A stretch of DNA of 64,000 bases from Candidatus Bathyarchaeota archaeon (lineage in GTDB: Archaea; Thermoproteota; Bathyarchaeia; TCS64), in contig JBDRQD010000055.1 of assembly GCA_043826455.1 (NCBI GenBank), positions 177 to 64,176 of the forward strand. Direction: 5' to 3'. The translations under genes were made by a program, and so were the position numbers. Positions 11,558-29,114 of this stretch are shown here, one piece after another (the first letter of the stretch is position 1; each line of letters opens with the position of its first letter). The notes beneath the pieces are model-generated. The model was not told the DNA's origin and ran no database searches. It worked only from the letters and a program-made list of their open reading frames with translations.

Positions 11558-12037
11558 ATGGGACCCGCGAAAAGGCTTCTGGATCAACTGCTCGACGAGG
11601 AAAAGCTGGGCTACTGCCAGAACTGTGGCATGTGCACCGCCAGCTGCCCCATGGCCCGAGTGATCCCGGACACCTACAACCCACGTCTCCTGCTCCAGAA
11701 GGCTCACCTGGACCTGGAGAACCTGACTGAGGGTGAGGAGCTGTGGCTCTGCTCGTGGTGCTACAGGTGCACCGAGAGGTGCCCCCAGAACATTCAGCCT
11801 ACAGAGATATTTCTTCTGACCCGGAACTTCGCCTCGGAGAAGGGGAACATACCCCCCAATCCCAGGATGATCATCAGGAACATCATGAGGACGGGTCGAA
11901 GCATGCCCGTGGACGAGTTCACCAACGAGCTGAGAGAGGACTACGGCCTGCCCCCGGTCACAGGCGTCTCCGAGAAGGCTCTTGAGGAGCAGAGGAAGAT
12001 CATGGGGGACGAGTTCGTGAGGAGGATAGAGAAGTGA
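11558..12037 (+). CDS. hdrC: Heterodisulfide reductase subunit C-like, 2x[4Fe-4S] (copy 1)
   Basis: CQNCGMCTASCP and CSWCYRCTERCP motifs. I prefer ATG 11558 (MGPAKRLL) to the track's GTG 11477, whose first 27 residues look non-coding. GTGA overlap with hdrB. Confidence 0.8.
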   Translation: MGPAKRLLDQLLDEEKLGYCQNCGMCTASCPMARVIPDTYNPRLLLQKAHLDLENLTEGEELWLCSWCYRCTERCPQNIQPTEIFLLTRNFASEKGNIPPNPRMIIRNIMRTGRSMPVDEFTNELREDYGLPPVTGVSEKALEEQRKIMGDEFVRRIEK

Positions 12038-12924
12038 GTCTGGAGTATGTCCTCTACCCCGGCTGCGTGGCCTCGGTCCGCGAGATAGGCTACGAGCTGT
12101 CCGTCAGGAAGGTATTCGACAAGCTGGGCGTCAAGCTCCGACAGTCTAACGACTTCAACTGCTGCATGCCCGCGTGCCTAGTGCACAGCGTCGACTACGT
12201 CAGGGGCCTGGCGTTGACGACCCGCAACCTGGCTGTGGCTGAGAAGATGGGCTTGCCCATGCTCACCCTGTGCTCAAGCTGCTTCGGTAACCTGTCACGG
12301 GCGAAGTACATGCTGGACGAGGACCCCAAGCTGCGGAAGGACGTGAACAAGATCCTGGCCTCGGCAGGCAGAGAGTACAGGGGGGAGGCCCGGGTCGAGC
12401 ACGTGCTGACAATACTTCACAAGGACATCACCGTGGACAAGCTGAAGGAGCGCGTCTCCAACCCGCTGAGGAACATTGTGGCGGCGCCCTTCCACGGCTG
12501 CCACATCTTCATGCCGGCCAAGTACAGCGGCTTCGACGACCCCGAGTTCCCCAGCAAACTGGATACCATCATGGCCGCCACGGGGGTGCAGGTCGCCGAC
12601 TACAACGAGAAGACCAGCTGCTGCATCGGCTGCGGCTCCTTCTTCGGCGACGTGTCCCAGACGGCGTCCCTTCTACTGGTCGACAAGATACTTAAGAGCG
12701 CCAAGGACACGGGGGCCGACTGCATTGTGACCACCTGCCCCTTCTGCATCATGCAGCTGGAGATAGGCCAGATCAAGCTCAGGGACGAGGGGAAGGACTA
12801 CGGGCTCCCGGTTCTCCACTTCGTGGACCTCCTGGGCCTTTCCATGGGCATGGACCCCGGTGAGCTGGGCTTTGAGCTCAGAAGGGTCAGTGTCAAGCCG
12901 CTTCTAGCCAAGATCAGTGGGTGA
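12034..12924 (+). CDS. hdrB: Heterodisulfide reductase subunit B-like, two CCG domains (copy 1, divergent CC motifs)
   Basis: NCCMPACL, CCIGCGSF and TTCPFCIMQLE. Two Cys-rich CCG-type domains, but with CCM/CCI instead of canonical CCG. Confidence 0.8.
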   Translation: MSLEYVLYPGCVASVREIGYELSVRKVFDKLGVKLRQSNDFNCCMPACLVHSVDYVRGLALTTRNLAVAEKMGLPMLTLCSSCFGNLSRAKYMLDEDPKLRKDVNKILASAGREYRGEARVEHVLTILHKDITVDKLKERVSNPLRNIVAAPFHGCHIFMPAKYSGFDDPEFPSKLDTIMAATGVQVADYNEKTSCCIGCGSFFGDVSQTASLLLVDKILKSAKDTGADCIVTTCPFCIMQLEIGQIKLRDEGKDYGLPVLHFVDLLGLSMGMDPGELGFELRRVSVKPLLAKISG

Positions 12925-12968
12925 GCCTTATTTCCCACTCAATTTAATAGTGACAGAAGATACGTAAG

Positions 12969-13496
12969 GTGATACGTTTGGCTGCCGGAATCGATGAAAG
13001 AGAAGTCAAGTTCATCTCCCTGATGCTCAGCAGGGCCGTGGGGGAGATGAACGCCGAGGTGTGTGAGCAGTGCGGAAAGTGCTCCTCCGCGTGCCCAGTG
13101 TCCAAGGAGATCGAGGGCTTCAACCCGAGGCAGATGATCGGGAAGGTGGCCCTGGGTAAGAACGATGAGCTCCTGAGGGGTGAGGCCATCTGGACCTGCA
13201 CCACGTGCCTCAAGTGCAGGGAGAGGTGCCCCGAGGAGATATCCCCCTACGACGTGATCCTCATCCTCAGGAACCTTGCTTACCGGGCGGGGTACAACTA
13301 CCCTGGGGGCTACGACAACTTCATCGAGGGCGTGAAGGAGTCAGGGTATATCTCATCGCCCCAGACAGTGAGGACCAGGGACGGCGGCAAGGTGAGCAGA
13401 GAGGACCTCGGCCTACTGGAGGTCCATGGGCCTGAGGACATGGAGCGGTTCAGAGGAATAGTAGAAGGAATCATAAAGGCAGGTAAGAGTAGATGA
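12969..13496 (+). CDS. hdrC: Heterodisulfide reductase subunit C-like (copy 2)
   Basis: CEQCGKCSSACP and CTTCLKCRERCP. The start is either GTG 12969 or ATG 13023. Confidence 0.8.
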   Translation: MIRLAAGIDEREVKFISLMLSRAVGEMNAEVCEQCGKCSSACPVSKEIEGFNPRQMIGKVALGKNDELLRGEAIWTCTTCLKCRERCPEEISPYDVILILRNLAYRAGYNYPGGYDNFIEGVKESGYISSPQTVRTRDGGKVSREDLGLLEVHGPEDMERFRGIVEGIIKAGKSR

Positions 13497-14371
13497 AGTA
13501 CGCCTTATACCCCGGGTGCACCATCCAGTCCGACCAGTTCGGATACGAGGCCTCGGTGAGGGAAACCCTGCCCAAGCTGGGCGTCGAACTCGTGGACATG
13601 AAGGGGGCCAGCTGCTGCGGGTTCCCCGCCCTGAGCAGCGTCTCCAAGATGGGGTGGCACTATCTCTCAGCCAGGAACCTGGCCATCGCCGAGGAGATGG
13701 GTCTCGACATGCTGCCCCTCTGTAACGGGTGCCATCTCTCGTTCATCGAGACCATGCACTTCCTGGAGGAGGACCCCGAGCTCAGTAACATTATCAACGG
13801 CAACCTGGAGACGGAGGGCCTCAGGTACGAGGGGAAGGTTAAGGTGGTCCACCTGCTGGAAGTCCTCCACGACAAAGTGGGGGCGGACAAGATCAGCAGC
13901 AAGGTCGTGAAACCCCTCGGAGGTCTGAAGCTGGCTTCTCATCCCGGCTGCCACGCCATCAGGCCCAGCGACCTGCAGAAGGTGGACGACCCTGAGGACC
14001 CCAGGAAGCTGGACACGCTCATTAAGGCTCTGGGGGCCGAGACCTTCGACTACCCAGAGAAGATCGACTGCTGCGGCTCACAGCTTGCCGTAACCTCGGG
14101 CAGGACGACCCTGAAGATCGCGGGGGACAAGCTCAAGGCGGTCAAGTCCTACGGCTTCGACGGTCTGGTGACCACCTGCCCCTTCTGCTTCAAGATGTAC
14201 GACGGGAGGCAGAGGGCCATCAAGGGCGCCCTCAAGGACAACACATTGGACGTCCCCGTCTTTTATTATACTCAGCTTCTGGGGCTGGCGTTGGGCTCCA
14301 GCTCCAATAGACTCGGGCTACAGATGAACATGAGCCCGGTTGACAGCCTCGTGGAGAGGATAACGGAGTAA
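13493..14371 (+). CDS. hdrB: Heterodisulfide reductase subunit B-like (copy 2, canonical CCG motifs)
   Basis: SCCGFPAL, DCCGSQLA and TTCPFCFKMYD. ATGA overlap with hdrC copy 2. Confidence 0.85.
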   Translation: MKYALYPGCTIQSDQFGYEASVRETLPKLGVELVDMKGASCCGFPALSSVSKMGWHYLSARNLAIAEEMGLDMLPLCNGCHLSFIETMHFLEEDPELSNIINGNLETEGLRYEGKVKVVHLLEVLHDKVGADKISSKVVKPLGGLKLASHPGCHAIRPSDLQKVDDPEDPRKLDTLIKALGAETFDYPEKIDCCGSQLAVTSGRTTLKIAGDKLKAVKSYGFDGLVTTCPFCFKMYDGRQRAIKGALKDNTLDVPVFYYTQLLGLALGSSSNRLGLQMNMSPVDSLVERITE

Positions 14372-14374
14372 ATT

Positions 14375-15676
14375 ATGATGAAGCCAGTAATGGTTATCGG
14401 CGGCGGGGTAGCGGGAATCCAGGCGGCTCTGGACCTGGCCGACAGGGGCCTCAAGGTCCACCTTGTGGAGAAGACACCCAGCATAGGCGGCGTCATGGCC
14501 CAGCTTGACAAGACGTTGCCCACCATGGACTGCAGCATATGCATCCTGGCCCCCAAGATGATCGAGTGCTTCAGGCACCCCAACATAACCATCCATACCC
14601 AGAGCCAGGTGAAGGAGGTGAGTGGTGGAGCCGGAGACTTCGGCGTCAAGGTGCTCAAGGAGCCCCGGTCGGTGGACGAGGCCAAGTGCACCGGCTGCGG
14701 AATATGTAGCCAGAAGTGCCCCACCAAGGTGAAGGACGAGTGGCAGGAGGGCCTCACGACCCGGAAGGCCGTGTACATAATGTTCCCCCAGGCCGTGCCC
14801 CTCACCGCCACCATCGACAGGGACAACTGCCTCTACTTCCAGAAGGGGATATGCCAGGTCTGCAGTAAGGTCTGCTCCGCGGGGGCCATCGACTACACGC
14901 AGGAGGCCGAGGAGATCGATCTCAATGTTTCATCCATAGTCGTCGCCACCGGGTTCCAGGAGTACGACCCGGCGGAGCTGAAGGAGTACGGGTACGGCAG
15001 GTTCAAGGACGTCCTCACGGCCATGGAGTTCGAGAGGCTGGTCTGCGCGTCCGGGCCCACGGGCGGCCACCTCAACCGCCCCTCTGACGGCAAGCTGGCC
15101 CACAGGGTCGCCTTCGTCCAGTGCGTGGGCTCCAGGAGCCACAAGAAGGGCTACCCCTACTGCAGCAGCGTCTGCTGCATGTACGCCACCAAGGAGGCGG
15201 TGCTCATAAAGGAGCACGACCCAGGCTCGGAGGTGAACGTCTTCTACATGGACCTCAAGGTCTTCGGCAAGGGCTTCCAGCAGTTCGTGGACAGGGCCAA
15301 GAGCCACTACGGCGTGAACTATATCCGCGGTAGGCCCGGGGAGATCAGGATGAACCCCCTCACCAAGGACCTGACCATATGGTACGAGGACACCAACACA
15401 GGCGACGTATCCAGCATGGAGGCCGACATGGTGGTGCTATGCACAACCATGATTGCTAGACCCGAGAACAAGGAGCTGGCCCGGGTCCTGGGGCTGGAGC
15501 TGGACGAGTGGGGCTTCTTCAAATCCCTTAACCCTTTAACGAACCCCGTCGAGACGGGGATGCCGGGGGTTTTCCTGTGCGGGTGCAGCCACGGCCCCAG
15601 GGACATCCCGGAGTCGGTGGCTGAGGCCAGCGGCGCGGCTGCTTGCGCCGCCGAGGTCGCCAGGAGGTTCATGTGA
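14375..15676 (+). CDS. hdrA: HdrA-like FAD module with inserted ferredoxin domain (lacks the HdrA N-terminal Cys domain and C-terminal ferredoxin domain)
   Basis: VIGGGVAGIQAALDLADRG (FAD fold), GGVMAQLDKTLPTMDCSICILAPKM, CTGCGICSQKCP, and VQCVGSRSHKKGYPYCSSVCCMYATKEA. Confidence 0.85.
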   Translation: MMKPVMVIGGGVAGIQAALDLADRGLKVHLVEKTPSIGGVMAQLDKTLPTMDCSICILAPKMIECFRHPNITIHTQSQVKEVSGGAGDFGVKVLKEPRSVDEAKCTGCGICSQKCPTKVKDEWQEGLTTRKAVYIMFPQAVPLTATIDRDNCLYFQKGICQVCSKVCSAGAIDYTQEAEEIDLNVSSIVVATGFQEYDPAELKEYGYGRFKDVLTAMEFERLVCASGPTGGHLNRPSDGKLAHRVAFVQCVGSRSHKKGYPYCSSVCCMYATKEAVLIKEHDPGSEVNVFYMDLKVFGKGFQQFVDRAKSHYGVNYIRGRPGEIRMNPLTKDLTIWYEDTNTGDVSSMEADMVVLCTTMIARPENKELARVLGLELDEWGFFKSLNPLTNPVETGMPGVFLCGCSHGPRDIPESVAEASGAAACAAEVARRFM

Positions 15677-17358
15677 TGAGCGAGAAGCCAAGGGTAGGCG
15701 TCTTCGTGTGCCACTGCGGGATAAACATAGGTGGCTACCTGGACGTACCGGACGTGGTGAAGTACGCTGAGACCCTGCCTGACGTGGCCTACGCGGAGGC
15801 AAACCTGTACACGTGTTCAAGTGACGGCCTCCAGAAGATCAAGGAGGCTATAAAGAAGTACGACCTGAACCGGGTCGTCGTCGCGTCCTGCACCCCCAGG
15901 ACCCACGAGCCCCTGTTCCAGGGTGCCTGCGAGGAGGCCGGCCTCAACAAGTACGTCTTCGAGATGGCTAACATCAGGGACCAGTGCAGCTGGGTCCACA
16001 TGCACGAGCGCGATAAGGCTACGCAGAAGGCAAAGGACCTTGTACGCATGGCCGTGGCCAAGGCGCGGCTGCTCACCCCTGAGGAGGAACCCGAGATCGA
16101 TATCCAGCCCATCGGCATGGTGATAGGTGGCGGAGTCTCGGGGCTAACGGTGGCCCTATCCCTGGCCGACCAGGGCTTCAAGGTTCATTTGGTGGAGAAG
16201 GAGGGCAGGCTGGGCGGGTACCTCAACAAGCTGGACAAGCTGTTCCCCAGCAACATGAAGGCCGAGGACGTCATCAAGCCCCTCATCCAGCGTGTTAAGA
16301 GCTCGCCGGACATCACAGTCCACCTCAAATCCACGGTGACCGACGTGAAGGGCTTCATCGGCAACTTCGACACCGAGATCACCACGGGAGAAGAGTCCCA
16401 GCTCCTCAACGTGGGCACCATCGTCGTCGCCACCGGAGCCGACTACCTAGACCCCAAGGGGCTGTACGGGTACGGCGAGGTGGAGGGAGTCGTGACCCAG
16501 TTGGAGCTAGAGGAGCTCATGAAGGAGGGCAAGCTGGGCAAAGCCAAGACCACGGTCATGATCCAGTGCGTCGGGGCCCGCATCGAGGAGAGGCCCTACT
16601 GCTCCAGGGTATGCTGCTCCGAGGCCATGAAGAACGCGACGCTGCTGGTGGAGGAGAACCCCAGGCGCGACGTGTACATCCTTTACAGGGACCTCCAGAC
16701 CTACGGCCTGGAGTACACGGCGCTGGAGTGGGACGCCAAGAAGAAGGGCGTCAAGCTGATCAAGTACGACGTAGAGATGCCCCCCGAAGTGACGAAGGGT
16801 GAGAAGGGGCCCGTGGTGAAGGTATTCAGCCCCCTGCTGGGCGAGGAGCTGACCATCGAGGCCGACACGGTGGTGCTATCCGCGCCCCTCATACCCAACG
16901 AGGAGAACAAGAGGCTGTCCCAGCTGCTGAAGGTGCCCCTCAACTCCGACGGCTTCTTCTTGGAGGCCCACGTGAAGCTGAGGCCCCTGGACTTCGCCAC
17001 CGACGGAGTCTACGTATGCGGGACCGCCCACAGCCCCAAGGAGGTGGCCGAGAGCCTGGCCCAGGCAAGAGGCGCAGCATCCAGGGCCGGGATACCCATG
17101 GCCAAGGGCAGGCTCAAGACCGCGGCCATCACCAGCGTCGTGGACGAGTCCAAGTGCAGCGGCTGCGGCACCTGCATAGAGCTCTGCGCCTACAACGCCA
17201 TCACCAAGAACGAGAAGAAGCTGGCCCAGGTCACCTCCGCCGTCTGCAAGGGCTGCGGCGTATGCGGGGCCAGCTGCCCGGAGAGGGCCATAACCATGAG
17301 GCACTTCACCAACGAGGAGCTGGAGGCCCAGGGCCTCGCGGCCCTCAAGGAGGCATAA
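15676..17358 (+). CDS. hdrA: HdrA-like protein: HdrA N-terminal Cys domain + second FAD/NAD-fold module + C-terminal 2x[4Fe-4S] ferredoxin domain
   Basis: RVGVFVCHCGINIGG, VASCTPRTHEPLF, NIRDQCSWVH, VIGGGVSGLTVALSLADQG, CSGCGTCIELC and CKGCGVCGASCP. ATG 15676 overlaps the upstream stop (TGATG). Confidence 0.85.
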   Translation: MSEKPRVGVFVCHCGINIGGYLDVPDVVKYAETLPDVAYAEANLYTCSSDGLQKIKEAIKKYDLNRVVVASCTPRTHEPLFQGACEEAGLNKYVFEMANIRDQCSWVHMHERDKATQKAKDLVRMAVAKARLLTPEEEPEIDIQPIGMVIGGGVSGLTVALSLADQGFKVHLVEKEGRLGGYLNKLDKLFPSNMKAEDVIKPLIQRVKSSPDITVHLKSTVTDVKGFIGNFDTEITTGEESQLLNVGTIVVATGADYLDPKGLYGYGEVEGVVTQLELEELMKEGKLGKAKTTVMIQCVGARIEERPYCSRVCCSEAMKNATLLVEENPRRDVYILYRDLQTYGLEYTALEWDAKKKGVKLIKYDVEMPPEVTKGEKGPVVKVFSPLLGEELTIEADTVVLSAPLIPNEENKRLSQLLKVPLNSDGFFLEAHVKLRPLDFATDGVYVCGTAHSPKEVAESLAQARGAASRAGIPMAKGRLKTAAITSVVDESKCSGCGTCIELCAYNAITKNEKKLAQVTSAVCKGCGVCGASCPERAITMRHFTNEELEAQGLAALKEA

Positions 17359-17361
17359 CGT

Positions 17362-18126
17362 ATGAGCGATTTCGAACCCAAGATCATAGGCTTCCTGTGT
17401 AACTGGTGCAGCTACGCGGGCGCCGACCTCACAGGGGTCAGCAGGATACAGTACCCCACAAACCTACGCGTCATCAGAGTCATGTGCAGCGGCCGGATCG
17501 ACCCACCCCTGCCCCTCAGCTTCCTGGCCGAAGGCGCCGACGGCGTCATGATCACGGGCTGCCACATAGGCGACTGCCACTACATAGACGGCAACCTGTA
17601 CGCCAAACGCAAGTTCAGCCTCCTGGAAAGGCTTGTAGAGAAGGCCGGCCTGGATAAGGGCCGCGTCATGCTGGAGTGGGTCTCGGCCAGCGAGGGCCAG
17701 AAGTTCGCGGACGTGGTCACCGGATTCATCGGTAAGATCAAGGAGATAGGCCCAACGCCAGCAACCACCGACCCCGATATCAAGCTCAACATCAAGGCGG
17801 CCCAGGCCGCCGCAGAGGCGTACCGCCTCAGGGCCCTCGTGGGCAAGGAGGAGCAACTGGAGAAGAAGGGCAACGTCTACGGCGACAAACTATCCCAGGA
17901 GGAGCTGGACAGGATCATGGGCGAGGCCGTTGAGCTGGAGTACACCCGAAACAAGATCAAGCTCCTGCTGAAGGAGCCCATGTCGGTGAAGGAGCTCGCC
18001 CAGAAGCTTGGAATCGACTCAAAGACCGTGCTGGAACACATCGTGGCCCTGCGGCAGAGAGGCTGGGTGGACCTCCACGAGGTGAGGGACCATTCACCCC
18101 TCTACAAGACCATGGAGGTGGCCTGA
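17362..18126 (+). CDS. mvhD: MvhD-like [2Fe-2S] protein fused to a C-terminal coiled-coil + winged-helix domain
   Basis: The N-terminal 135 aa are MvhD (IIGFLCNWCSYAGADL, RVMCSGRIDP, ITGCHIGDCHY). The C-terminal ~110 aa end in an HTH-like MSVKELAQKLGIDSKTVLEHIVALRQRGWV. Confidence 0.8.
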   Translation: MSDFEPKIIGFLCNWCSYAGADLTGVSRIQYPTNLRVIRVMCSGRIDPPLPLSFLAEGADGVMITGCHIGDCHYIDGNLYAKRKFSLLERLVEKAGLDKGRVMLEWVSASEGQKFADVVTGFIGKIKEIGPTPATTDPDIKLNIKAAQAAAEAYRLRALVGKEEQLEKKGNVYGDKLSQEELDRIMGEAVELEYTRNKIKLLLKEPMSVKELAQKLGIDSKTVLEHIVALRQRGWVDLHEVRDHSPLYKTMEVA

Positions 18127-18127
18127 G

Positions 18128-21100: not shown

Positions 21101-21130
21101 CGAGCCGCCCTGCAGGAGGTGAAGGCATGA
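18128..21130 (+). CDS. hdrA: Fused two-module HdrA (collinear with 14375..15676 plus 15676..17358)
   Basis: 1000 aa. The N-half has GGGITGIQASLDLADAG, GGVMTQLDKTFPTNDCAMCILAPK, CTGCGDCAKKCP and CIGCGICSEVC. The C-half has RVGVFVCHCGINIGG, NIRDQCSWVH, GGGLTGMTSALEIADQG, CSGCRMCENVC and CKGCGVCVATCP. Confidence 0.9.
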   Translation: MSKVGAVLVVGGGITGIQASLDLADAGFKVYLMDREPTIGGVMTQLDKTFPTNDCAMCILAPKLVGAGRHPNIELLIYTELVDLKGDEGDFTAVLRRKARSVDPEKCTGCGDCAKKCPVEAIDEYNEGMAKRSASYIKYPQAVPLVATIDKSKCIGCGICSEVCKAEAIFYDDSDVTAELKVGSVILSPGFQAFDPSILTEYGYGRYPNVVTSMEFERILSATGPYRGVVMRPSDGDLPRRVAFLQCIGSRDERIGNPYCSGVCCMYAMKEAVIAQEHNPGLEATIFFMDLRAFGKEFDDYYIRAEKEHEIRFIRSRVASTRQVPGSRDVLLSYELDGEVKEESFDMVVLSVGLNPPEDSGDLADAAGIELNRYGFAKTSLFKPLETTRPGVYVAGAFHGPKDIPDSVAQASGAAAKAARLIAPERGKLITKVEYPAEKPVVGEEPRVGVFVCHCGINIGGVVGVNEVVEYARTLPNVVYAEQNLYTCSQDTQDKIRETIKEHNLNRVIVASCTPRTHEPLFRATLKEAGLNEYLFEMANIRDQCSWVHMHEHDKATQKSKDLVRMAVAKARLLEPLEKPVIKTTPVALVIGGGLTGMTSALEIADQGYQVHLVEKTGELGGNLRNIKFVPTGEDPEKELKALIKRVSKHKKISVHLNTQVADAHGYIGNFESTLVSSEAETVVNHGVAILATGGVEYKPKEYMYGAPGVMTQFELESRLHEGYRPGSVVMIQCVGSRCEERTYCSRVCCTGAVTNALKIKEVNPDADVYVLYKDMRTYGFKEDYYRAAADKGVVFIRYTDEDKPVVEAKGGLTVTVTDPVLNEKVELPADAVVLAAAVLPQEDNGKLAGIYKVPLSKDGFFLEAHMKLRPLDFATDGVFLAGLAHGPKTVDECISQASGAAARALTILSQPTIEVEGAIANVDEDRCSGCRMCENVCEFKAIEMVEEEDGKVHSHVIPEVCKGCGVCVATCPSGAITAGHFTDPEILSQVRAALQEVKA

Positions 21131-21558
21131 GCTACGAGCCCAAGATAGTCGGATTTCTATGTAACTGGTGCAGCTACGCCGGCGCTGATCTTGCCGGCGT
21201 TAGCAGGTTCCAGTACCCCACAAACCTGAGGGTCATCAGGGTCATGTGCAGCGGCAGGGTTCACCCCGCCCACATCCTGGAAGCGTTCAAGAATGGAGCA
21301 GATGGCGTGCTGGTTGCCGGGTGCCACCCGCCCAACGACTGCCACTACATCTCAGGAAACCTGAAGGCCAAGAGACGCGTCGCCATGCTGAAGAAGCTCA
21401 TGGACCAAATGGGCATGGACCCGGAGCGGCTCCGGCTGGAGTGGGTGAGCGCCGCCGAGGGCGAAAAGTTCGCCAGGCTGGTCACCGAGTTCACCAACAT
21501 GCTGAAGGATAAGGGGCCATGCCAGTTGAAGGCTGTACTCGCACAGGAGGCCGACTAG
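21127..21558 (+). CDS. mvhD: MvhD (methyl-viologen-reducing hydrogenase delta subunit), stand-alone
   Basis: IVGFLCNWCSYAGADL, RVMCSGRVHP and VAGCHPPNDCHY. 143 aa. ATGA overlap with the upstream hdrA. Confidence 0.9.
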   Translation: MSYEPKIVGFLCNWCSYAGADLAGVSRFQYPTNLRVIRVMCSGRVHPAHILEAFKNGADGVLVAGCHPPNDCHYISGNLKAKRRVAMLKKLMDQMGMDPERLRLEWVSAAEGEKFARLVTEFTNMLKDKGPCQLKAVLAQEAD

Positions 21559-21559
21559 G

Positions 21560-22066
21560 ATGACCATCAAGGTAACAGAGGAAGCCAAGGAGTTCAGGAA
21601 ACGGGTTCTGGAGACCCCCGGCGCTGAGAAGATCATGCACTGCTACCAGTGCGGAACCTGCACAGCCGACTGCCCCATAGCCAAACGAGTGAAGGAGTTC
21701 AGGCCCAGGCAGATAGCCCGGCTGGTCATGTACGGCCAGAAGGAGAGGCTCATGGAGGGCGACCTCCTGTACCTGTGCGCGGGCTGCTACACGTGCTACG
21801 AGCACTGCCCCCAGGAGGTCCACGTAAGCGAGATCGTCTCAGCCCTGCGCAAGATGAGCCTCAACGAGGGCCACCTGCTGCCCGGGTTCAAGGCATTGAT
21901 GGAGGGCGTCGCCGAGATGGGGTACATCTACGAGATCGACGAGTTCGCCAACGAGATGAGGGAGGACGATGATCTGCCCCCGGCCCCCGAGCCCGACACG
22001 GACGGCATAGAGGCCGTCATGAGGGCTACAGGGTTCCTAGGCAAAGTGGAGGCGAGCACACGATGA
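21560..22066 (+). CDS. hdrC: Heterodisulfide reductase subunit C-like (copy 3)
   Basis: CYQCGTCTADCP and CAGCYTCYEHCP. Confidence 0.85.
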   Translation: MTIKVTEEAKEFRKRVLETPGAEKIMHCYQCGTCTADCPIAKRVKEFRPRQIARLVMYGQKERLMEGDLLYLCAGCYTCYEHCPQEVHVSEIVSALRKMSLNEGHLLPGFKALMEGVAEMGYIYEIDEFANEMREDDDLPPAPEPDTDGIEAVMRATGFLGKVEASTR

Positions 22067-22923
22067 AGTACGCTTTCTTCGTGGGCTGCACGGTGCTCAG
22101 CAGGCTGCCCGGCTACGAGAAGTCGGCCCGGAAGTTGGCCGAGAAGCTGGGCGTCGAGCTGCTGGACATGCCCGGGTCAGGGTGCTGCGGCACCACATAC
22201 CTGGAGACCCTGGACCACAAGACCGGCCTGGCCGTCGCGGCCCGCAACATCGCCATAGCCGAGGAGATGGGCCACGACATAGTCACAGTGTGCAACGGGT
22301 GCACCGAGGTGCTCACCAAGGCCAACAAGGAGCTCAAGGAGAACCCCGAGCTGAGGGCCGAGGTGAACGAGGTTCTAGCTGAGGCGGGGAAGGAGTTCAA
22401 GGGCACCGTGGAGGTCAAACACTACGTCAGGATGTTGAAAGAGGACGTGGGCCTGGACGCCATCAAGGAGAAGGTGGAGCACAGCTTCAAGGGCTTCAAG
22501 GTGGCCAGCCACTACGGGTGCCACATGCTGAAGCCGGCCGAGATACTGATGAGCGACGACCCCGAGAACCCGACGGTGATGGATGAGCTGGTGGCCGCCA
22601 CAGGTGCCGAGCCCGTGGAGTACCCCAGCAAGCTGGAGTGCTGCGCCGGCCCTGTCATGGGGGTCCGGGAGGCGGTCACCTGGAGCGTCGGCATGGACAA
22701 GGTCAAGGAGGTCCAGCAGTACGGCGACGCCCTGGTTACCGCGTGCCCCTTCTGCTACCTCACCTTCGAGCGGTGCCAGCTCATGCAGGAGAACAACCCC
22801 AACCTGCCGGTGCTGCACATTCCCCAGCTCCTGGGCCTGGCCATGGGCCTGGACCCGGACGAGGTGGGGCTCAGCCACAACAAGGTGGGAGCTAAGGCGG
22901 TGGCCGGGAGGCTGGAGGGATAA
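22063..22923 (+). CDS. hdrB: Heterodisulfide reductase subunit B-like (copy 3)
   Basis: GCCGTTYL, ECCAGPVM and TACPFCYLTFE. ATGA overlap with hdrC copy 3. Confidence 0.85.
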   Translation: MKYAFFVGCTVLSRLPGYEKSARKLAEKLGVELLDMPGSGCCGTTYLETLDHKTGLAVAARNIAIAEEMGHDIVTVCNGCTEVLTKANKELKENPELRAEVNEVLAEAGKEFKGTVEVKHYVRMLKEDVGLDAIKEKVEHSFKGFKVASHYGCHMLKPAEILMSDDPENPTVMDELVAATGAEPVEYPSKLECCAGPVMGVREAVTWSVGMDKVKEVQQYGDALVTACPFCYLTFERCQLMQENNPNLPVLHIPQLLGLAMGLDPDEVGLSHNKVGAKAVAGRLEG

Positions 22924-22925
22924 CC

Positions 22926-23894
22926 ATGGGTAAGCTGAAGTTCGGGTTCTACTGGGCGGCCAGCTGCGGAGGCTGCGAGATCGCGGTCCTGGATGTGGAC
23001 GAGGCCATACTGGAGGTGCTGGACGTGGCCGAGGTGCTGTTCTGGCCCGTGGCCATGGACATCAAGTACAAGGACGTCGAGGCCATGCCGGACGGCCACA
23101 TGGATGTCGTCTTCTTCAACGGAGCCATAAGGAACAGCGAGCAGGAGCACCTGGCCAAGCTGCTCAGGAGGAAAGCCAAGTTCGTGGTGGCCTTCGGCTC
23201 CTGCGCCTACACGGGCGGGGTCCCCGGCCTGGCTAATGTGGCTGACAGGGAAGAGGTCTTCGACAGAGCCTACCTCTCGTCACCCTCCACAGTCAACCCG
23301 GAGAACCATGTGCCCCAGACGGAGTACCAGGTGCCCGAAGGCAAGGTGCATCTCCCGGTATTCTACGACACCGTGGTGCCCCTGGACAGGGTGGTGGACG
23401 TAGACTACTACCTGCCTGGGTGCCCACCCCCGTCGAGCCTTGTACTCAACGCGGTGAGGGCCATAGCCTCCGGTAACCTGCCCCCCAAGGGCTCCATACT
23501 GGCCCCGGAGCTGGCAGTGTGCGACGAGTGCCCACGGAAGAAGGAGGACAAACAGATCACGGAGATCAAGCGCATCGTGGACCACGTCCCGGAGCCCGAG
23601 AAGTGCCTGCTGGAGCAGGGATTCATCTGCATGGGCCCGGCCACCAGAGGCGGCTGCGAGGCCCAGTGCATCAACGCCAACATGCCTTGCACCGGCTGCG
23701 GCGGCGCGCTGCCCGGAGCAATAGAGCAGGGCTCGGCCATGATCTCTGCCCTCTCGACCATACTCGGGCTGGCGGCGGAGAAGGAGGAAGGCTTCGACTT
23801 CGAGGAGCTCCTCGCCCAGCTGAAGGACCCTGTGGGCACCTTCTACAAGTACTCGCTGGCTGACAGCATCATCAGCAGGAGGATCAAACGATGA
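22926..23894 (+). CDS. mvhG: [NiFe] hydrogenase small subunit, F420-non-reducing (Mvh, group 3c-like)
   Basis: [15 protein letters not shown] near the N-terminus, plus multiple distal Cys clusters ([27 protein letters not shown]). It sits directly upstream of the large subunit. Confidence 0.85.
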
Positions 23895-25348
23895 AGACCA
23901 TAACCATAGACCCCATCACTAGGCTGGAGGGCCACGGCAAGATAGAGATATTCCTCAACGACAGGGGAGACGTGGAGAACGCGTACCTCCAGATACCGGA
24001 GCTCCGAGGCTTCGAGCGGTTCTGCGAGGGACGCAGAGCCGAGGACATGCCCATCATCACGCCCCGCATCTGCGGCGTCTGCCCGGTGGCCCACCACTTC
24101 GCAGCCACCAAGGCCCTGGACGCCTGCTACGGCGTGGAGCCCACGGAGACGGCTAAGAAACTAAGGGAGCTAATGAACTGCGGATACTACGTATACGACC
24201 ACACCCTCCACTTCTACTTCCTCGGCGGACCCGACTTCGTGGTGGGCCCAGATGCGCCGGCTGCGGAGCGCAACATCTTCGGCGTCCTCAAGAAGGTGGG
24301 CCTGGACGTGGGCAAGGAGGTCATCAAGCACCGAGCCTACGGCCAAAGGATCACAGAGATACTAGGAGGCAAGGCCACCCACCCAACGTGTGGAGTGCCC
24401 GGCGGCATCAGCAAGGGGCTGAACGAGGAGGAGCGCCAGAGCATCGAGGACATGGCCAGGAGCAGCATCAAGTTCGCCAAGTTCACCCTCGGCGTCTTCA
24501 ACGACATAGTGCTCGCCAACCAGAACTACGTGGACCTCATCCTCAGCGACCCCTTCCAACTGGACACCTACAACATGGGCACCGTGGACAAGAACAACCA
24601 CGTCAACTTCATCGACGGAGACATAAGGGTCACCGACCAGAAAGGCAGGGAGTACGTCAAGTTCGGGGACCAGGAGTACCTGGACCACATATGCGAGCAC
24701 GTGGAGCCCTGGACCTACAGCAAGTTCACCTACCTCAAGAACGTGGGCTGGAACGGCTTCACGGACGGCCCCGAGAGCGGCATCTACAGGGTAGGCCCCC
24801 TGGGCAGGCTCAACGCAGCCGACGGCATGGCCACGCCCCAGGCAAACGAGGAGTACAAACGCATGTTCAAGACCCTGGGCGGGAGGCCGGTGCAATCTAC
24901 TCTGGCCTTCCACTGGGCGCGCCTCGTGGAGCTCCTCTACGCAGCGGAGCGCGCACTGGAGCTAGCCAAGGACCCGGGGATCACTGACACGGACCTAAGG
25001 AACCCGGTGGGCGAGCCCGGCGAAGGCGTAGGCATAGTCGAAGCAGCCAGAGGCACCCTGATCCACCACTACAAGCTCGACGAGGAGGGCCTCGTGAAGA
25101 AGGCCAACCTCATCGTGGCCACCACCAACAACTACGCCGACATCTGCATGAGCATCAGGGACGCAGCCAAGGGCCTGATAAAGGGCGGAAACGTCAACGA
25201 CGGCCTCCTCAACATGGTGGAGATGAGCTTCAGAGCCTACGACCCCTGCTTCGGCTGCAGCACCCACGCCCTCCCCGGGCAGATGCCCCTCAGAGTCAAC
25301 ATATACGACAGCGACAAGCAGCACCTAAAAACCGTGCAGAGAGGCTAA
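23891..25348 (+). CDS. mvhA: [NiFe] hydrogenase large subunit, F420-non-reducing (Mvh, group 3c-like)
   Basis: RLEGHGKI, N-terminal ligand motif [12 protein letters not shown], and C-terminal ligand motif DPCFGCSTH followed by a 25-aa tail. Confidence 0.9.
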
Positions 25349-25354
25349 CCAGGC

Positions 25355-25801
25355 TTGAGGACCCTCGTCATCGGCGTGGGCAACCTCCTCAGGTGCGACG
25401 ACGGGGCCGGCGTCCACGTCGTCAACCGCCTGAAAAGTGAGGCGCCCCACATCGACGCCGAGGACGTTGCCATGGGGAGCATAGAGATCCTTGAAGCCAT
25501 GAAGGGCTACGACAGAGTCATCATAGTGGACTCTGTGAAGACGGGCGCAGAGCCCGGCACAGTTTTCCTCGTCAACATAACAGGGGGCGATGAGCCCCCC
25601 GTCATCGGGTCCAGCCACGGGGTGGACCTGGTGACCACTCTGCGCCTGGGGGCCACCCTCTTCCCCGAGGAGATGCCCGGGGAGCAGATCATCATCGGCG
25701 TCGAGGCGGGGGACATCACCACCCTGAGCGAGGAGTGCACGCCGCCCGTGGAAGCCGCTATAAATAGGGTCGTAGAAGAGATCATCTCACTCGTGGGTTA
25801 G
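25355..25801 (+). CDS. Hydrogenase maturation endopeptidase (HycI/FrhD/HoxM family)
   Basis: LVIGVGNLLRCDDGAGVHV and SSHG motifs. 148 aa, TTG start, immediately after mvhA. Confidence 0.8.
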   Translation: MRTLVIGVGNLLRCDDGAGVHVVNRLKSEAPHIDAEDVAMGSIEILEAMKGYDRVIIVDSVKTGAEPGTVFLVNITGGDEPPVIGSSHGVDLVTTLRLGATLFPEEMPGEQIIIGVEAGDITTLSEECTPPVEAAINRVVEEIISLVG

Positions 25802-25804
25802 CAG

Positions 25805-26419
25805 ATGCGGTCGGCGGTGATCCTCGCGGGGGGCTCCTCCAGGCGCCTCGGATACGATAAAGGACTCAGGGCTCTGGCTGGTAAACCTCTCGTATCCTAC
25901 GCCGTTGACGCCTTGAGGCCGCTTGTGGACGAGGTGATACTTGTGGTGGCCTCAGACGCCCAGCGCGGATCATACCGTGCAAGCCTCCCCGCCTCAGTCA
26001 AGATATCGGTTGACATGTACCCGGGCGGCTCACCCCTCGTGGGCCTCATCACCGGCCTCACAGAGGCCCGCGGAGACTACGCCCTCGTCACGGGGTGCGA
26101 CATGCCCTTCATCAGCCCGGGCCCCGTGGAGCTCCTATTCAGCAGAGGTGAGGGTAGGGACGGCGCCGTCTTCCTGAAGCCCAACGGCTGGATCGAGCCG
26201 CTGCTAGCCGTCTACAGGGCGGACACGTGTCTGCCCGAGGCGCTGCGTCTCCTCAGGGCGGAGGACCTTCGCATCAGGATGGTGTTAAGAAACCTCAGGG
26301 ATGTGGCGTATGTTCCCGCATCGAGCCTCGGCGTTGACCCTGAGCTGCTTTTCTTCGACGCGGACACGGAGGAGAGGCTGGCGGAGGCTGAGCGCCTAAT
26401 CGTGAGCCGTAGGACTTGA
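25805..26419 (+). CDS. mobA: Molybdenum cofactor guanylyltransferase
   Basis: AVILAGGSSRRLGYDKG nucleotide-binding motif. ~200 aa. TGCDMPF motif. Confidence 0.8.
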   Translation: MRSAVILAGGSSRRLGYDKGLRALAGKPLVSYAVDALRPLVDEVILVVASDAQRGSYRASLPASVKISVDMYPGGSPLVGLITGLTEARGDYALVTGCDMPFISPGPVELLFSRGEGRDGAVFLKPNGWIEPLLAVYRADTCLPEALRLLRAEDLRIRMVLRNLRDVAYVPASSLGVDPELLFFDADTEERLAEAERLIVSRRT

Positions 26420-26592: not shown

Positions 26593-26919
26593 GTGAACGC
26601 ACCATGGCACAATGTGGTCCAAAAGGTCCTTGATAAGGACGACTCGCCTGTGAAGAACTTCCCAGGAAACTCGGACAAAAAGTACGGATACTTGGTCCTC
26701 ACGAAAAAGAAGCTGGTATTCGTTCAGGAGAAGGGGTTATTCTCTAAGAGCTATGAGGTGGTCTGGGACCTACCTTACAACGGCTTGAAGGAGTTCAAGC
26801 AGTCGGACAAGTACAAGATCGAGTTAAACGGCGGAGACAAGAAGTACATCGTCGAAACAGGCGAGCTCAACCCGAAGATAGTGCTAAACGCCATACAGGA
26901 CGCGAATGGAAGCCATTAA
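26593..26919 (+). CDS. Small hypothetical protein, possibly PH/GRAM-like fold
   Basis: 108 aa with lower GC than its neighbours. GYLVLTKKKLVFVQEKG resembles bacterial PH-domain strands. GTG start is uncertain. Confidence 0.4.
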   Translation: MNAPWHNVVQKVLDKDDSPVKNFPGNSDKKYGYLVLTKKKLVFVQEKGLFSKSYEVVWDLPYNGLKEFKQSDKYKIELNGGDKKYIVETGELNPKIVLNAIQDANGSH

Positions 26920-28031: not shown

Positions 28032-28110
28032 GGGATATGAGTGGTGTCCCAGGGTTTTTATCTTAACGCCCTTTATCGAGGGTCTTTTATCGCGCTTAAC
28101 GTAGCTCAAG

Positions 28111-28866: not shown

Positions 28867-29114
28867 TGCCAATGGAAATGTTAGGAACACGGGTTTCAGT
28901 TGGTTCCTCCGCGTTCCTCTAATACAAACCAAGGGCAGCATAAGCTGAGCCTGGATGAGTCAAAAGAAAAGCAAACCAAAGAATCAACAAGATAAGTCAC
29001 GTAAAAGGCTCATACTCTCCGAGAAGGACTGCCTCAAGGAGTTTTACAGGAAGATATCCTGAGCCCGCAGGCTGATTGAGATGGTTTAATAACGATAACC
29101 TTCTGCATACGAGT

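What the first reader, a model, noticed from the sequence alone, without database searches (positions are those of the whole stretch)
11558..26419. 15-kb hdr/mvh super-operon with three HdrCB pairs, two HdrA systems and two MvhD
Sixteen co-directional genes run in the order hdrC-hdrB, hdrC-hdrB, hdrA(core), hdrA(N+C domains), mvhD-wHTH, fused hdrA, mvhD, hdrC-hdrB, mvhG, mvhA, endopeptidase, mobA.

Many junctions are 4-nt or 5-nt overlaps, indicating translational coupling: GTGA at 12034, ATGA at 13493, 21127, 22063 and 23891, and TGATG at 15674.

Canonical Mvh-Hdr is a single HdrABC plus MvhAGD. Here one hydrogenase module is encoded alongside three different disulfide-reductase modules. One of these (HdrB copy 1) has non-canonical CCM/CCI motifs in place of CCG. 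This suggests one flavin-based bifurcating core serving several terminal acceptors. No mcr, fwd or hdrD gene lies in the window, so the physiological acceptor (CoM-S-S-CoB or another disulfide) is open.
Basis: partly seen in the sequence, partly recalled or inferred. Interest (0 to 1): 0.7.

Follow-up and report, generated by a model that had tools for sequence, protein, structure and literature searches.

The report
Modular hydrogenase–heterodisulfide reductase cluster, Bathyarchaeia
This is an intact, conserved gene cluster from an uncultured Bathyarchaeia archaeon that pairs one hydrogen-splitting enzyme with two versions of an electron-splitting flavoprotein and three disulfide-reducing modules; it is a richer variant of a known system, and its true substrate is still unknown.

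Summary
All cofactor ligands are intact and all genes tested are under purifying selection.

The window comes from a Candidatus Bathyarchaeota MAG. The same order recurs in at least seven other species-level genomes. Related clusters occur in the published genome BA1 and in Loki-/Freyarchaeota.

The locus does not encode one bifurcating core. It encodes two complete, internally asymmetric HdrA units, one fused and one split, each followed by its own MvhD adaptor. Both HdrA forms are already described for ANME and methanogens.

The invariant core is mvhD-wHTH, fused hdrA, mvhD, hdrCB, mvhGA. The upstream part is lineage-variable. Sister lineages carry a GltD-like NAD(P)H flavoprotein there instead.

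The MvhD-wHTH and the fused HdrA match, by architecture, BamF and BamE of class II benzoyl-CoA reductase.

The CCM/CCI motif of HdrB1 is real and clade-conserved, but all ten cluster cysteines are present.

The disulfide acceptor remains unknown. Verdict: new variant of a known kind, moderate interest.

The parts
11558..12037 (+). hdrC1: HdrC-type di-[4Fe-4S] protein. The ATG at 11558 is the likely start; the longest ORF begins at GTG 11477.
   Evidence: Pfam Fer4_8 and TIGR03290 E=3e-32, below the equivalog cutoff. Two CX2CX2CX3CP motifs are visible in the translation. Orthologue alignments begin at residues 26-31 of the long ORF.
12034..12924 (+). hdrB1: HdrB-type protein with two CCG domains that read CCM and CCI.
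   Evidence: Pfam CCG x2; TIGR03288 253 bits against a 345 cutoff. All 10 noncubane-cluster Cys align with 5ODC_B. The CCM/CCI signature is also present in the Lokiarchaeota orthologue at 53% identity. GTGA overlap with hdrC1.
12925..12968 (+). The only sizeable intergenic gap (44 nt). It contains TTTAATAG about 20 nt before the hdrC2 start, a possible internal archaeal promoter (inference).
   Evidence: Sequence. In L008 and L009 hdrC1B1 lies on the opposite strand from hdrC2B2 and the rest, so hdrC2 must have its own promoter there.
12969..13496 (+). hdrC2: second HdrC-type protein.
   Evidence: Two CX2CX2CX3CP motifs.
13493..14371 (+). hdrB2: second HdrB-type protein (CCG/CCG).
   Evidence: ATGA overlap with hdrC2.
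14375..15676 (+). hdrA-core (class A6-like): thioredoxin-reductase domain plus inserted ferredoxin domain. It has the Cys194/Cys197 equivalents, the HA3 cluster Cys, and E356/K409. [quoted passage not shown]
   Evidence: NCBIfam HdrA2 model positions 140-559. Alignment to 5ODC_A. 48% identical to the N-half of the fused HdrA.
15676..17358 (+). hdrA N+C (class A12-like): N-terminal FeS domain, thioredoxin-reductase domain without the inserted ferredoxin and without Cys197, and a C-terminal ferredoxin domain.
   Evidence: NCBIfam HdrA2 model positions 1-230 and about 321-646. Alignment to 5ODC_A. 54% identical to the C-half of the fused HdrA. TGATG junction.
17362..18126 (+). mvhD-wHTH: MvhD [2Fe-2S] adaptor domain (residues 1-133), a helical linker, and an ArsR-like winged helix-turn-helix (about residues 195-250).
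   Evidence: Pfam FlpD E=1e-48 plus HTH families. AF2 model pLDDT 82.6, pTM 0.83. Foldseek: the N-terminal part matches 5ODC_D with TMt 0.83-0.84, and the C-terminal part weakly matches ArsR/SmtB regulators. The wHTH is conserved in 26 homologues.
18128..21130 (+). Fused hdrA (type II, 1000 aa). The N-half resembles hdrA-core and the C-half resembles hdrA N+C.
   Evidence: P0001 is 100% identical and comes from an NCBI Candidatus Bathyarchaeota MAG. K270 (K409 equivalent) is invariant in 119/119 sequences; the C-half equivalent T755 is variable.
21127..21558 (+). mvhD: plain MvhD adaptor, 143 aa.
   Evidence: Pfam FlpD E=1e-55. 62% identical to the MvhD domain of mvhD-wHTH. ATGA overlap.
21560..22066 (+). 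hdrC3.
   Evidence: Best PDB hits are methanogen HdrC chains.
22063..22923 (+). hdrB3 (CCG/CCA), the HdrB copy closest to methanogen HdrB.
   Evidence: TIGR03288 298 bits against a 345 cutoff. All ten Cys conserved. 46% identical to 5ODC_B.
22926..23894 (+). mvhG: small subunit of a group 3c-type [NiFe] hydrogenase.
   Evidence: Pfam Oxidored_q6; VhuG model E=8e-65.
23891..25348 (+). mvhA: [NiFe] hydrogenase large subunit, with the N-terminal RICGVC and C-terminal DPCFGCSTH motifs.
   Evidence: VhuA model E=6e-122, below the cutoff. Sequence.
25355..25801 (+). Hydrogenase maturation endopeptidase.
   Evidence: TIGR00072 103 bits, above its 47.45 cutoff.
25805..26419 (+). mobA-like molybdenum cofactor guanylyltransferase. 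It is the last gene of the co-directional run and is not a part of Hdr/Mvh itself.
   Evidence: Pfam NTP_transf_3; MobA models below cutoff. The position after the protease is conserved in L001.

Best explanation
The region is a conserved, modular Mvh-Hdr-type electron-bifurcation cluster of a Bathyarchaeia archaeon. It encodes two HdrA units rather than one.

Core unit. This unit is shown to be invariant across relatives. H2 is oxidised at MvhA. Electrons pass through MvhG and the plain MvhD into the C-terminal ferredoxin domain of the fused, pseudo-dimeric HdrA. They reach a bifurcating FAD, most likely the one in the N-terminal half, which keeps the invariant Lys. From there one electron goes through the adjacent [4Fe-4S] cluster to HdrC3 and then HdrB3, where a still unidentified disulfide is reduced. 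The other electron goes through the N-domain cluster, completed by the Cys197-type ligand of the other half, and the single inserted ferredoxin domain to ferredoxin or a polyferredoxin.

Accessory unit. This unit is lineage-variable. HdrA-core plus HdrA-N+C form the same pseudo-dimer from two polypeptides. It is served by the MvhD-wHTH adaptor and by HdrC1B1 and HdrC2B2, plausibly one pair on each thioredoxin-reductase domain. It either shares the MvhGA hydrogenase or is wired to the core through the wHTH adaptor.

What is shown: gene content, domain complementarity, ligand conservation, synteny and selection. What is inferred: the electron path, the subunit stoichiometry and the partner of MvhD-wHTH.
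For: - Gene identities.
- Exact complementarity of domains and ligands in both the split and the fused HdrA against 5ODC_A. The N-domain Cys occur only in the N+C parts. Cys194/197 and the eight inserted-ferredoxin Cys occur only in the core parts. The eight C-terminal ferredoxin Cys occur only in the N+C parts. The HA3 Cys and E356 occur in all four.
- All ten noncubane-cluster Cys are present in HdrB1, HdrB2 and HdrB3.
- dN/dS is 0.08-0.18 for all 11 genes tested.
- The same order occurs in L004-L010, with hdrC1B1 divergent in L008 and L009.
- The core mvhD-wHTH / fused hdrA / mvhD / hdrCB / mvhGA is present in all but one of the relatives sampled (L001, L003, BA1, L015, L017; L016 lacks mvhD-wHTH). 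The upstream flavoprotein varies: GltD-like with an HdrA-type C-terminal ferredoxin domain, or an HdrC-GltD fusion.
- In Loki-/Freyarchaeota each HdrA pair is likewise followed by an MvhD, and hdrC1B1-like genes sit next to a split hdrA pair.
- K270 is invariant, while the C-half equivalent is variable.
- Literature: heterodimeric tandem and fused HdrA (PMC9012536; PMC12054007). BamE is a fused HdrA dimer with one bifurcating FAD, and BamF is an extended MvhD whose wHTH docks an input module (bioRxiv 10.64898/2026.04.10.717634). The sHdr core set shdrC1B1AHC2B2 encodes two different HdrCB pairs alongside one hdrA gene (bioRxiv 10.1101/2023.12.18.572138).
Against: - No protein-protein or expression data exist for this organism.
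- In BCRII only one HdrBC-like BamD is bound per fused BamE, so 'one HdrCB per thioredoxin-reductase domain' may be wrong.
- The wHTH could instead be a DNA-binding regulator. Its nearest folds are ArsR/SmtB repressors, though only weakly at E about 0.01-0.08.
- MvhD-wHTH is always immediately upstream of the fused hdrA, so it could belong to the fused unit rather than to the split one.
- No homology between MvhD-wHTH and BamF was tested.
- The acceptor is unknown. BA1, which carries mcr according to the literature, has the same core, so CoM-S-S-CoB cannot be excluded for the whole family.
Confidence: 0.55

Rival explanations
1. All fifteen products work as one machine. A single hydrogenase feeds one functional bifurcation centre, or two coupled in series through MvhD-wHTH, and this serves three different disulfide reductase arms.
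For: - The genes are tightly coupled, with only one 44-nt gap.
- There is only one hydrogenase for two HdrA units.
- mvhD-wHTH sits exactly between the two HdrA units, as bamF sits between bamE and bamGHI by gene name. BamF physically bridges two bifurcation modules in BCRII.
- Lyu et al. propose serial bifurcation where type II and type I HdrA co-occur.
Against: - hdrC1B1 is divergently transcribed in L008 and L009.
- The upstream module is dispensable or replaceable in sister lineages.
- Each HdrA unit has a complete set of entry and exit domains of its own.
Confidence: 0.25
2. It is an ordinary methanogen-type CoM-S-S-CoB heterodisulfide reductase / Mvh hydrogenase with extra paralogues, in an organism that makes or oxidises methane or alkanes.
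For: - The best PDB and NCBIfam matches are methanogen HdrA/B/C, MvhD and VhuA/G.
- BA1, reported as mcr-bearing (PMC7886697), carries the same core cluster.
Against: - None of HdrA, HdrB or HdrC reaches the NCBIfam equivalog cutoffs.
- The HdrB copies are only 38-46% identical to 5ODC_B.
- No mcr, fwd, mtr or hdrD lies in the 64 kb.
- BA1 uses a different HdrB type, only 41% identical to HdrB3.
- Published analyses say the disulfide of non-methanogenic Bathyarchaeia and Asgard Hdr is unidentified (PMC7886697).
Confidence: 0.12
3. The extra copies are redundant or decaying duplicates with no separate role.
For: There is internal paralogy: the HdrB copies are 37-40% identical, the HdrC copies 31-36%, and the split HdrA is 48-54% identical to the fused one.
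Against: - All ORFs are intact and all ligands are conserved.
- Each paralogue has its own orthologues at 62-87% identity in other genomes, and in Asgard archaea at about 50%.
- dN/dS is 0.08-0.18.
Confidence: 0.03
4. MvhD-wHTH is a redox-sensing one-component transcription factor that regulates the cluster, not an electron-transfer subunit.
For: - The C-terminal domain hits ArsR/HTH_5/HTH_20/MarR/TrmB families.
- It hits ArsR/SmtB folds.
- The 2p4w heat-shock regulator is the only non-MvhD PDB sequence hit.
Against: - All five Cys shared with the plain MvhD are conserved, and the gene sits translationally coupled inside the operon between hdrA genes in Bathyarchaeia and Asgard archaea.
- There is a structural precedent: BamF uses a wHTH to dock a partner subunit.
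Confidence: 0.15

Closest known systems
MvhAGD-HdrABC of Methanothermococcus thermolithotrophicus (PDB 5ODC and related entries)
   Same: All subunit types are present. The ten HdrB cysteines, the HdrC motifs, the five Cys shared by both MvhD copies, the HdrA HA3 cluster, E356/K409 and the hydrogenase CxxC motifs are conserved.
   Different: - HdrA is not a four-domain homodimer. It is a pseudo-dimer built from two complementary halves, present twice (fused and split).
- There are three HdrCB pairs and two MvhD, one of them with a wHTH.
- Scores fall below the equivalog cutoffs.
- No methanogenesis genes are nearby.
Tandem and fused HdrA of ANME and methanogens (Chadwick et al. 2022, PMC9012536; type II = A6+A12 of Lyu et al. 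2025, PMC12054007)
   Same: The N-domain / Cys197 complementarity and the single copy of each ferredoxin domain are the same. The A12-like part lies at the C-terminus, as Lyu et al. describe. Type II and type I HdrA co-occur in one cluster.
   Different: - Here the partner is a real MvhGA hydrogenase, not FdhB/Molybdop.
- The host is a Bathyarchaeia archaeon; no mcr lies in the 64-kb window and the rest of the MAG was not seen.
- Both the split and the fused form sit side by side with three HdrCB pairs.
- Chadwick et al. describe the opposite domain order for ANME HdrA3/4.
BamDEF(GHI) module of class II benzoyl-CoA reductase (bioRxiv 10.64898/2026.04.10.717634)
   Same: BamE is a fused HdrA dimer in which only the N-terminal thioredoxin-reductase domain keeps the bifurcation Lys. 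BamF is an MvhD homologue more than 100 aa longer, with a wHTH that docks another module. This parallels K270 versus T755 and the MvhD-wHTH here.
   Different: - No BamB/C tungsten enzyme and no BamGHI are present.
- HdrBC are separate proteins, not an HdrD-like BamD.
- Sequence homology to BamE and BamF was not tested.
Hdr / group 3c / group 4 hydrogenase / ATP synthase syntenic block of Atabey- and Freyarchaeia (bioRxiv 10.1101/2023.11.21.568159)
   Same: The window has the same block: hdr/mvh at 11.5-26.4 kb, a complex-I-like hydrogenase with HycI at 30.2-42.2 kb, and an A-type ATPase at 43-48.5 kb. Loki/Freya loci carry hdrC1B1-like genes, split hdrA, mvhD-wHTH and fused hdrA at 45-65% identity. 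In those organisms the acceptor is also called an 'unidentified heterodisulfide'.
   Different: The phylum differs. The Asgard clusters have three HdrA units and one upstream HdrCB pair. The hdrC2B2 pair was seen only in the Bathyarchaeia clade.
Candidatus Bathyarchaeota BA1 locus (LIHK01000054.1)
   Same: It carries split hdrA, mvhD-wHTH, fused hdrA, mvhD, hdrCB and mvhGA in the same order at 58-75% identity.
   Different: - An HdrC-GltD-like fusion of 490 aa replaces hdrC1B1 and hdrC2B2.
- The HdrB at the core slot is a different type, 41% identical to HdrB3.
Type I sHdr of sulfur oxidisers (shdrC1B1AHC2B2)
   Same: Two non-identical HdrCB pairs are encoded with one hdrA gene. The fused HdrA matches the solved HdrA-like chain 6tjr_A (deposited as a fumarate reductase/succinate dehydrogenase flavoprotein domain protein) at E=1e-50.
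   Different: - The gene order differs.
- No 'H' gene, LbpA, TusA or DsrE is present in the window.
- The HdrA here carries ferredoxin domains and pairs with MvhD and a hydrogenase.

Membership tests
Methanogen-type MvhAGD-HdrABC (H2:CoM-S-S-CoB, ferredoxin oxidoreductase) | HdrB with two CCG domains that supply ten Cys for two noncubane [4Fe-4S] clusters | tested here: met
   C9, 41, 42, 78, 81, 153, 193, 194, 231 and 234 of 5ODC_B are conserved in HdrB1, HdrB2 and HdrB3.
Methanogen-type MvhAGD-HdrABC (H2:CoM-S-S-CoB, ferredoxin oxidoreductase) | A single four-domain HdrA of about 650 aa that forms a symmetric homodimer | tested here: not met
   The domains are split over two complementary halves, once as two genes and once as a 1000-aa fusion.
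Methanogen-type MvhAGD-HdrABC (H2:CoM-S-S-CoB, ferredoxin oxidoreductase) | Curated equivalog scores for HdrA, HdrB and HdrC | tested here: not met
   TIGR03288: 253, 260 and 298 bits against a 345 cutoff. TIGR03290: 89-112 bits against 160. HdrA2 model: 1024 bits against 1100.
Methanogen-type MvhAGD-HdrABC (H2:CoM-S-S-CoB, ferredoxin oxidoreductase) | MvhD [2Fe-2S] adaptor and a group 3c [NiFe] hydrogenase MvhAG with a maturation protease | tested here: met
   FlpD E=1e-55 and 1e-48. VhuA E=6e-122 and VhuG E=8e-65, both below the equivalog cutoffs. Protease above its cutoff. CxxC motifs present.
Methanogen-type MvhAGD-HdrABC (H2:CoM-S-S-CoB, ferredoxin oxidoreductase) | CoM-S-S-CoB as substrate (mcr and CoM/CoB biosynthesis genes in the genome) | not testable with these tools
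   Only 64 kb of the MAG is available. No mcr, fwd or hdrD lies in it.
Heterodimeric / type II HdrA (Chadwick 2022; Lyu 2025) | Two thioredoxin-reductase domains. The N-terminal FeS domain and the Cys197 ligand lie on different halves. | tested here: met
   Cys194/197 are invariant in 119/119 fused homologues.
Heterodimeric / type II HdrA (Chadwick 2022; Lyu 2025) | One inserted and one C-terminal ferredoxin domain per pair (A6-like plus A12-like) | tested here: met
   together with the class descriptions.
Heterodimeric / type II HdrA (Chadwick 2022; Lyu 2025) | Physical pairing of the two halves through the shared cluster | not testable with these tools
   No multimer prediction or coordinates were available.
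BamF-like extended MvhD adaptor (class II benzoyl-CoA reductase) | An MvhD domain plus an extension of more than 100 aa that contains a winged helix-turn-helix | tested here: met
   254 aa against 143 aa for the plain MvhD. Pfam HTH hits, AF2 model and Foldseek.
BamF-like extended MvhD adaptor (class II benzoyl-CoA reductase) | Sequence homology to BamF, and docking to a BamI/HydA-like module | not tested
   No BamF sequence or BCRII structure was in the libraries on hand. No BamGHI homologue lies in the window.
Type I sHdr (sulfur-oxidising Hdr-like system) | A syntenic shdrC1B1AHC2B2 set with LbpA lipoate-binding proteins and sulfur transferases | tested here: not met
   The order differs and no GcvH/LbpA-like gene lies in the window. 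The GcvH-like genes of L003 and L017 lack the lipoyl lysine.

The most novel reading that the evidence does not exclude
In Bathyarchaeia (and, in related form, Asgard archaea; no mcr lies in this window) a BamF-like MvhD-wHTH adaptor physically couples two HdrA-type bifurcation modules into one H2-driven supercomplex. These are a split HdrA carrying two different HdrBC arms and a fused HdrA carrying a third arm plus the hydrogenase. The complex would perform serial or branched bifurcation onto two or three distinct, still unknown thiol/disulfide couples that replace CoM-S-S-CoB.
Probability: 0.2. Interest if true: 0.75.

Novelty: new variant of a known kind. Interest (0 to 1): 0.42.

Why it matters
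Bathyarchaeia are among the most abundant archaea in anoxic sediments, and Asgard archaea are of wide evolutionary interest. Both carry Mvh-Hdr genes, yet in lineages without methane metabolism the disulfide that Hdr reduces has been an open question for years.

This locus shows that one clade keeps three ancient HdrB types, all under selection, next to two HdrA units. It also shows that the upstream module is swapped for NAD(P)H-type flavoproteins in sister lineages. This gives a concrete, modular map of which subunits to co-express or pull down when looking for the acceptors. It extends the 'asymmetric HdrA' and 'extended MvhD adaptor' ideas beyond ANME and benzoyl-CoA reductase.

It does not by itself identify the substrate, and its parts are already described. 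The value is therefore incremental.

Tried and rejected
1. Lipoyl-protein as the disulfide substrate. L003 and L017 have two GcvH-like genes directly upstream of the core cluster. However, they are ribbon-helix-helix fusions in which the lipoyl lysine is replaced by Trp, and the window has no homologue. Rejected.
2. HdrB1 as a defective or non-cluster-binding copy because of CCM/CCI. Rejected and by the CCP motif in 5ODC_B.
3. Decaying duplicates. Rejected.
4. Conserved flanking genes as a clue to the acceptor. Flanks differ between lineages, apart from L001/L005 synteny with the window and the near-identical L007/L010. Uninformative.
5. Exact look-up of the window's fused HdrA in the contig index found nothing, so the rest of the source contig could not be fetched.
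6. The bacterial-type promoter and terminator scan was at background level and is not applicable to an archaeon. No tRNA or Rfam hits were found.
7. The proton-path residue E87 of HdrB is kept only in HdrB2, while H154 is kept in all three. This is too little to infer substrate.
8. The BCRII structure is not in the PDB copy, so the BamE/BamF comparison rests on the preprint text only.

Full report
**Observation**

The ORF list and the Pfam and NCBIfam scans confirm a run of 15 co-directional + strand genes from 11558 to 26419.

Thirteen of the 14 junctions span -4 to +6 nt. The one exception is a 44-nt gap between hdrB1 and hdrC2. The likely start of hdrC1 is the ATG at 11558, because orthologue alignments begin there. 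The likely start of the N+C hdrA is the ATG at 15676. The rest of the window has no mcr, fwd or hdrD among its larger ORFs.

**Source and recurrence**

The fused HdrA is 100% identical to a protein from an NCBI 'Candidatus Bathyarchaeota' MAG. It has more than 120 clusters of about 1000-aa relatives at 64% identity or more, many of them named Bathyarchaeia.

A scan of one genome per species with HdrB1 found seven loci. Where the contigs reach far enough, they repeat the order hdrC1B1-hdrC2B2-hdrAcore-hdrANC-mvhDwHTH-hdrAfus-mvhD-hdrC3B3 at 62-87% identity. In two of them (L008, L009) hdrC1B1 is on the opposite strand, divergent from the rest. So hdrC1B1 is a separable transcription unit that nevertheless stays adjacent.

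All 11 hdr/mvhD genes have dN/dS of 0.08-0.18 against L004 or L005. The arrangement is therefore real, selected and not unique to this window.

**Anatomy of HdrA**

I aligned the four thioredoxin-reductase-type units with the crystallised HdrA (5ODC_A, rebuilt). The result is strict complementarity.

[quoted passage not shown] They keep Cys194/Cys197 and all eight Cys of the inserted ferredoxin domain.
- HdrA-N+C and the C-half of the fusion keep the N-domain Cys and all eight Cys of the C-terminal ferredoxin domain. They lack Cys194/197 and the inserted domain.
- All four keep the four-Cys cluster next to the FAD, and E356.
- K409 is kept in three of the four. It is Thr in the C-half of the fusion.

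Across 119 fused homologues the N-half Lys is invariant. The C-half position is Lys in 89 and N/T/S/G/A in 30.

This is the heterodimer or self-heterodimer pattern proposed for tandem and fused HdrA of ANME (PMC9012536). It has been formalised as type I classes A6 and A12 and type II HdrA (PMC12054007). It also matches the cryo-EM description of BamE, a fused HdrA dimer whose N-terminal FAD is the bifurcating one (Lys280) and whose second FAD (Gln768) is structural (bioRxiv 10.64898/2026.04.10.717634). The locus therefore holds two complete HdrA units, one in two pieces and one in one piece. They are 48-54% identical to each other.

**HdrB, HdrC and MvhD**

All ten cysteines that ligate the two noncubane clusters are present in each of the three HdrB copies. 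Each HdrC has two CX2CX2CX3CP motifs, and both MvhD copies keep the same five Cys.

The CCM/CCI signature of HdrB1 is genuine. It is also conserved in the Lokiarchaeota orthologue (53% identity), so it marks an old HdrB clade. But the crystallised methanogen HdrB reads CCP/CCG, so the third residue is not diagnostic.

The three HdrB copies are 37-40% identical to each other and 38-46% identical to 5ODC_B. None reaches the NCBIfam equivalog cutoff.

A fourth HdrB type occupies the same slot between mvhD and mvhG in BA1, L003 and L017. It is 41-46% identical to HdrB3, although the neighbouring MvhA, MvhG and fused HdrA are 64-75% identical. HdrCB modules have therefore been exchanged at a fixed position.

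**Modularity seen in relatives**

In L001/L002, L003, L015 and L017 the five upstream genes are absent. There, mvhD-wHTH is preceded by a 577-581-aa GltD/NfnB-like NAD(P)-binding flavoprotein. That protein ends in an HdrA-type C-terminal ferredoxin domain. L001 shares both flanks with the window, so the swap happened in place.

BA1 (LIHK01000054.1) has split hdrA, mvhD-wHTH, fused hdrA, mvhD, hdrCB and mvhGA. In place of the two HdrCB pairs it has an HdrC-GltD-like fusion. L016 has only the core, without mvhD-wHTH.

Loki- and Freyarchaeota have hdrC1B1-like genes, a split hdrA pair, mvhD, a second hdrA pair, mvhD-wHTH and then a 1003-aa fused hdrA.

Two rules emerge from this sample.

1. The core mvhD-wHTH / fused hdrA / mvhD / hdrCB / mvhGA is nearly invariant.
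2. Every flavoprotein that carries a C-terminal ferredoxin domain is followed by an MvhD-type gene.

**MvhD-wHTH**

The AlphaFold model (pLDDT 82.6, pTM 0.83) shows an MvhD fold (TMt 0.83-0.84 to 5ODC_D), a helical linker and an ArsR-like winged helix. The winged helix matches known folds only weakly, at E of 0.01-0.08. The wHTH is conserved in 26 diverse homologues, and the protein is widespread in Bathyarchaeia, including BA1.

A regulator role is possible. However, the BCRII preprint describes BamF as an MvhD homologue more than 100 aa longer, whose wHTH docks the BamI input module. That is a direct precedent for a structural adaptor role. Homology to BamF could not be tested, because no sequence or structure was on hand.

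**Mechanism (inferred)**

The core most likely works like Mvh-Hdr. Electrons flow from H2 through MvhA, MvhG and MvhD to the C-terminal ferredoxin domain of the fused HdrA and on to the FAD of the N-half. From there, one branch runs via the adjacent cluster to HdrC3 and HdrB3 and an unknown disulfide. The other branch runs via the N-domain cluster and the inserted ferredoxin domain to ferredoxin.

The split HdrA with MvhD-wHTH, HdrC1B1 and HdrC2B2 is a second, accessory unit. The sHdr core set shdrC1B1AHC2B2 shows that two different HdrCB pairs can be encoded with one hdrA gene. On the other hand, BCRII binds only one HdrBC-like subunit per fused HdrA, so the stoichiometry is open. The sequence cannot settle whether the two units are separate complexes that share the hydrogenase or one supercomplex bridged by MvhD-wHTH. 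I rate these at about 0.55 and 0.25.

**Comparison with what is known, and novelty**

The parts are known.

- Asymmetric tandem and fused HdrA.
- Multiple and fused HdrA in TACK and Asgard archaea (PMC11237513).
- Mvh-Hdr in Bathyarchaeia with an unidentified disulfide (PMC7886697).
- A syntenic Hdr / group 3c / group 4 hydrogenase / ATP synthase block, highly transcribed in Atabey- and Freyarchaeia.

The window shows the same block: HycI plus NuoH/D/C-like and four antiporter-like subunits at 30.2-42.2 kb, and an A-type ATPase at 43-48.5 kb.

I did not find three things described.

- The specific Bathyarchaeia arrangement with both HdrA forms, three HdrCB types and the wHTH adaptor.
- The in-place exchange of the upstream module.
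- The exchange of HdrCB types at the core slot.

It is best filed as a new variant of a known kind. It fails membership of the methanogen CoB-CoM reductase equivalogs, although it very probably works like them.

**Limits**

There are no expression, interaction or substrate data. Only 64 kb of the genome was available. The comparison with BamE and BamF rests on a preprint's text. The sample of relatives is small.

Noticed in passing
window 30203-48464: A HycI-type protease scores above its equivalog cutoff. Next to it lie NuoH-, NuoD- (with a NiFe-hydrogenase hit) and NuoC-like genes on the minus strand, four NuoL/M/N-Mrp antiporter-like genes, and an A-type ATP synthase. Together with hdr/mvh this reproduces the 'syntenic block' reported for Atabey- and Freyarchaeia.
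   Followed up: partly
L003 5935-7438; L017 912-2413: Two tandem genes encode a ribbon-helix-helix domain fused to a GcvH-like domain. Its lipoyl lysine is replaced by Trp. They sit directly upstream of the GltD-like / mvhD-wHTH / fused hdrA cluster in two independent contigs. They may be regulators and are not lipoate carriers.
   Followed up: partly
L001 7521-9266; L003 7498-9231; L015 7525-9270; L017 2472-4205: In sister Bathyarchaeia lineages a GltD/NfnB-like NAD(P)-binding flavoprotein precedes mvhD-wHTH. It carries an HdrA-type C-terminal ferredoxin domain and replaces the split HdrA and the two HdrCB pairs. This suggests an NAD(P)H-linked alternative module.
   Followed up: partly
L013 5486-6958 (BA1, LIHK01000054.1): A 490-aa fusion of an HdrC-like di-cluster domain and a GltD-like flavoprotein sits where the window has hdrC1B1 and hdrC2B2.
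   Followed up: partly
window 22063-22923 versus L013 14763-15638, L003 13991-14872, L017 8980-9846: The HdrB at the conserved slot between mvhD and mvhG comes in two types that are only 41-46% identical. The flanking MvhA, MvhG and fused HdrA are 64-75% identical. This points to an exchange of the HdrCB module.
   Followed up: partly
window 26970-30056: Downstream of mobA lie a MoeB/ThiF-like E1 enzyme (minus strand), FdhD and an F420-dependent luciferase-like oxidoreductase that is not a Mer equivalog. The same order occurs in L001. Together with mobA this hints at a link to molybdo- or tungstopterin enzymes such as Fwd or Fdh.
   Followed up: no
L005 (DATKWN010000035.1): This contig is labelled Candidatus Krumholzibacteriaceae bacterium. 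Yet it carries the Bathyarchaeia-type cluster at 66-84% amino-acid identity, plus the same upstream flippase. It is probably a mis-binned contig.
   Followed up: no
window 26593-26919: A 108-aa ORF between mobA and the ThiF-like gene has no family match.
   Followed up: no
window 53831-54649: A 272-aa protein with a di-cluster ferredoxin domain gives weak QueG / reductive-dehalogenase-family hits, below the cutoffs.
   Followed up: no
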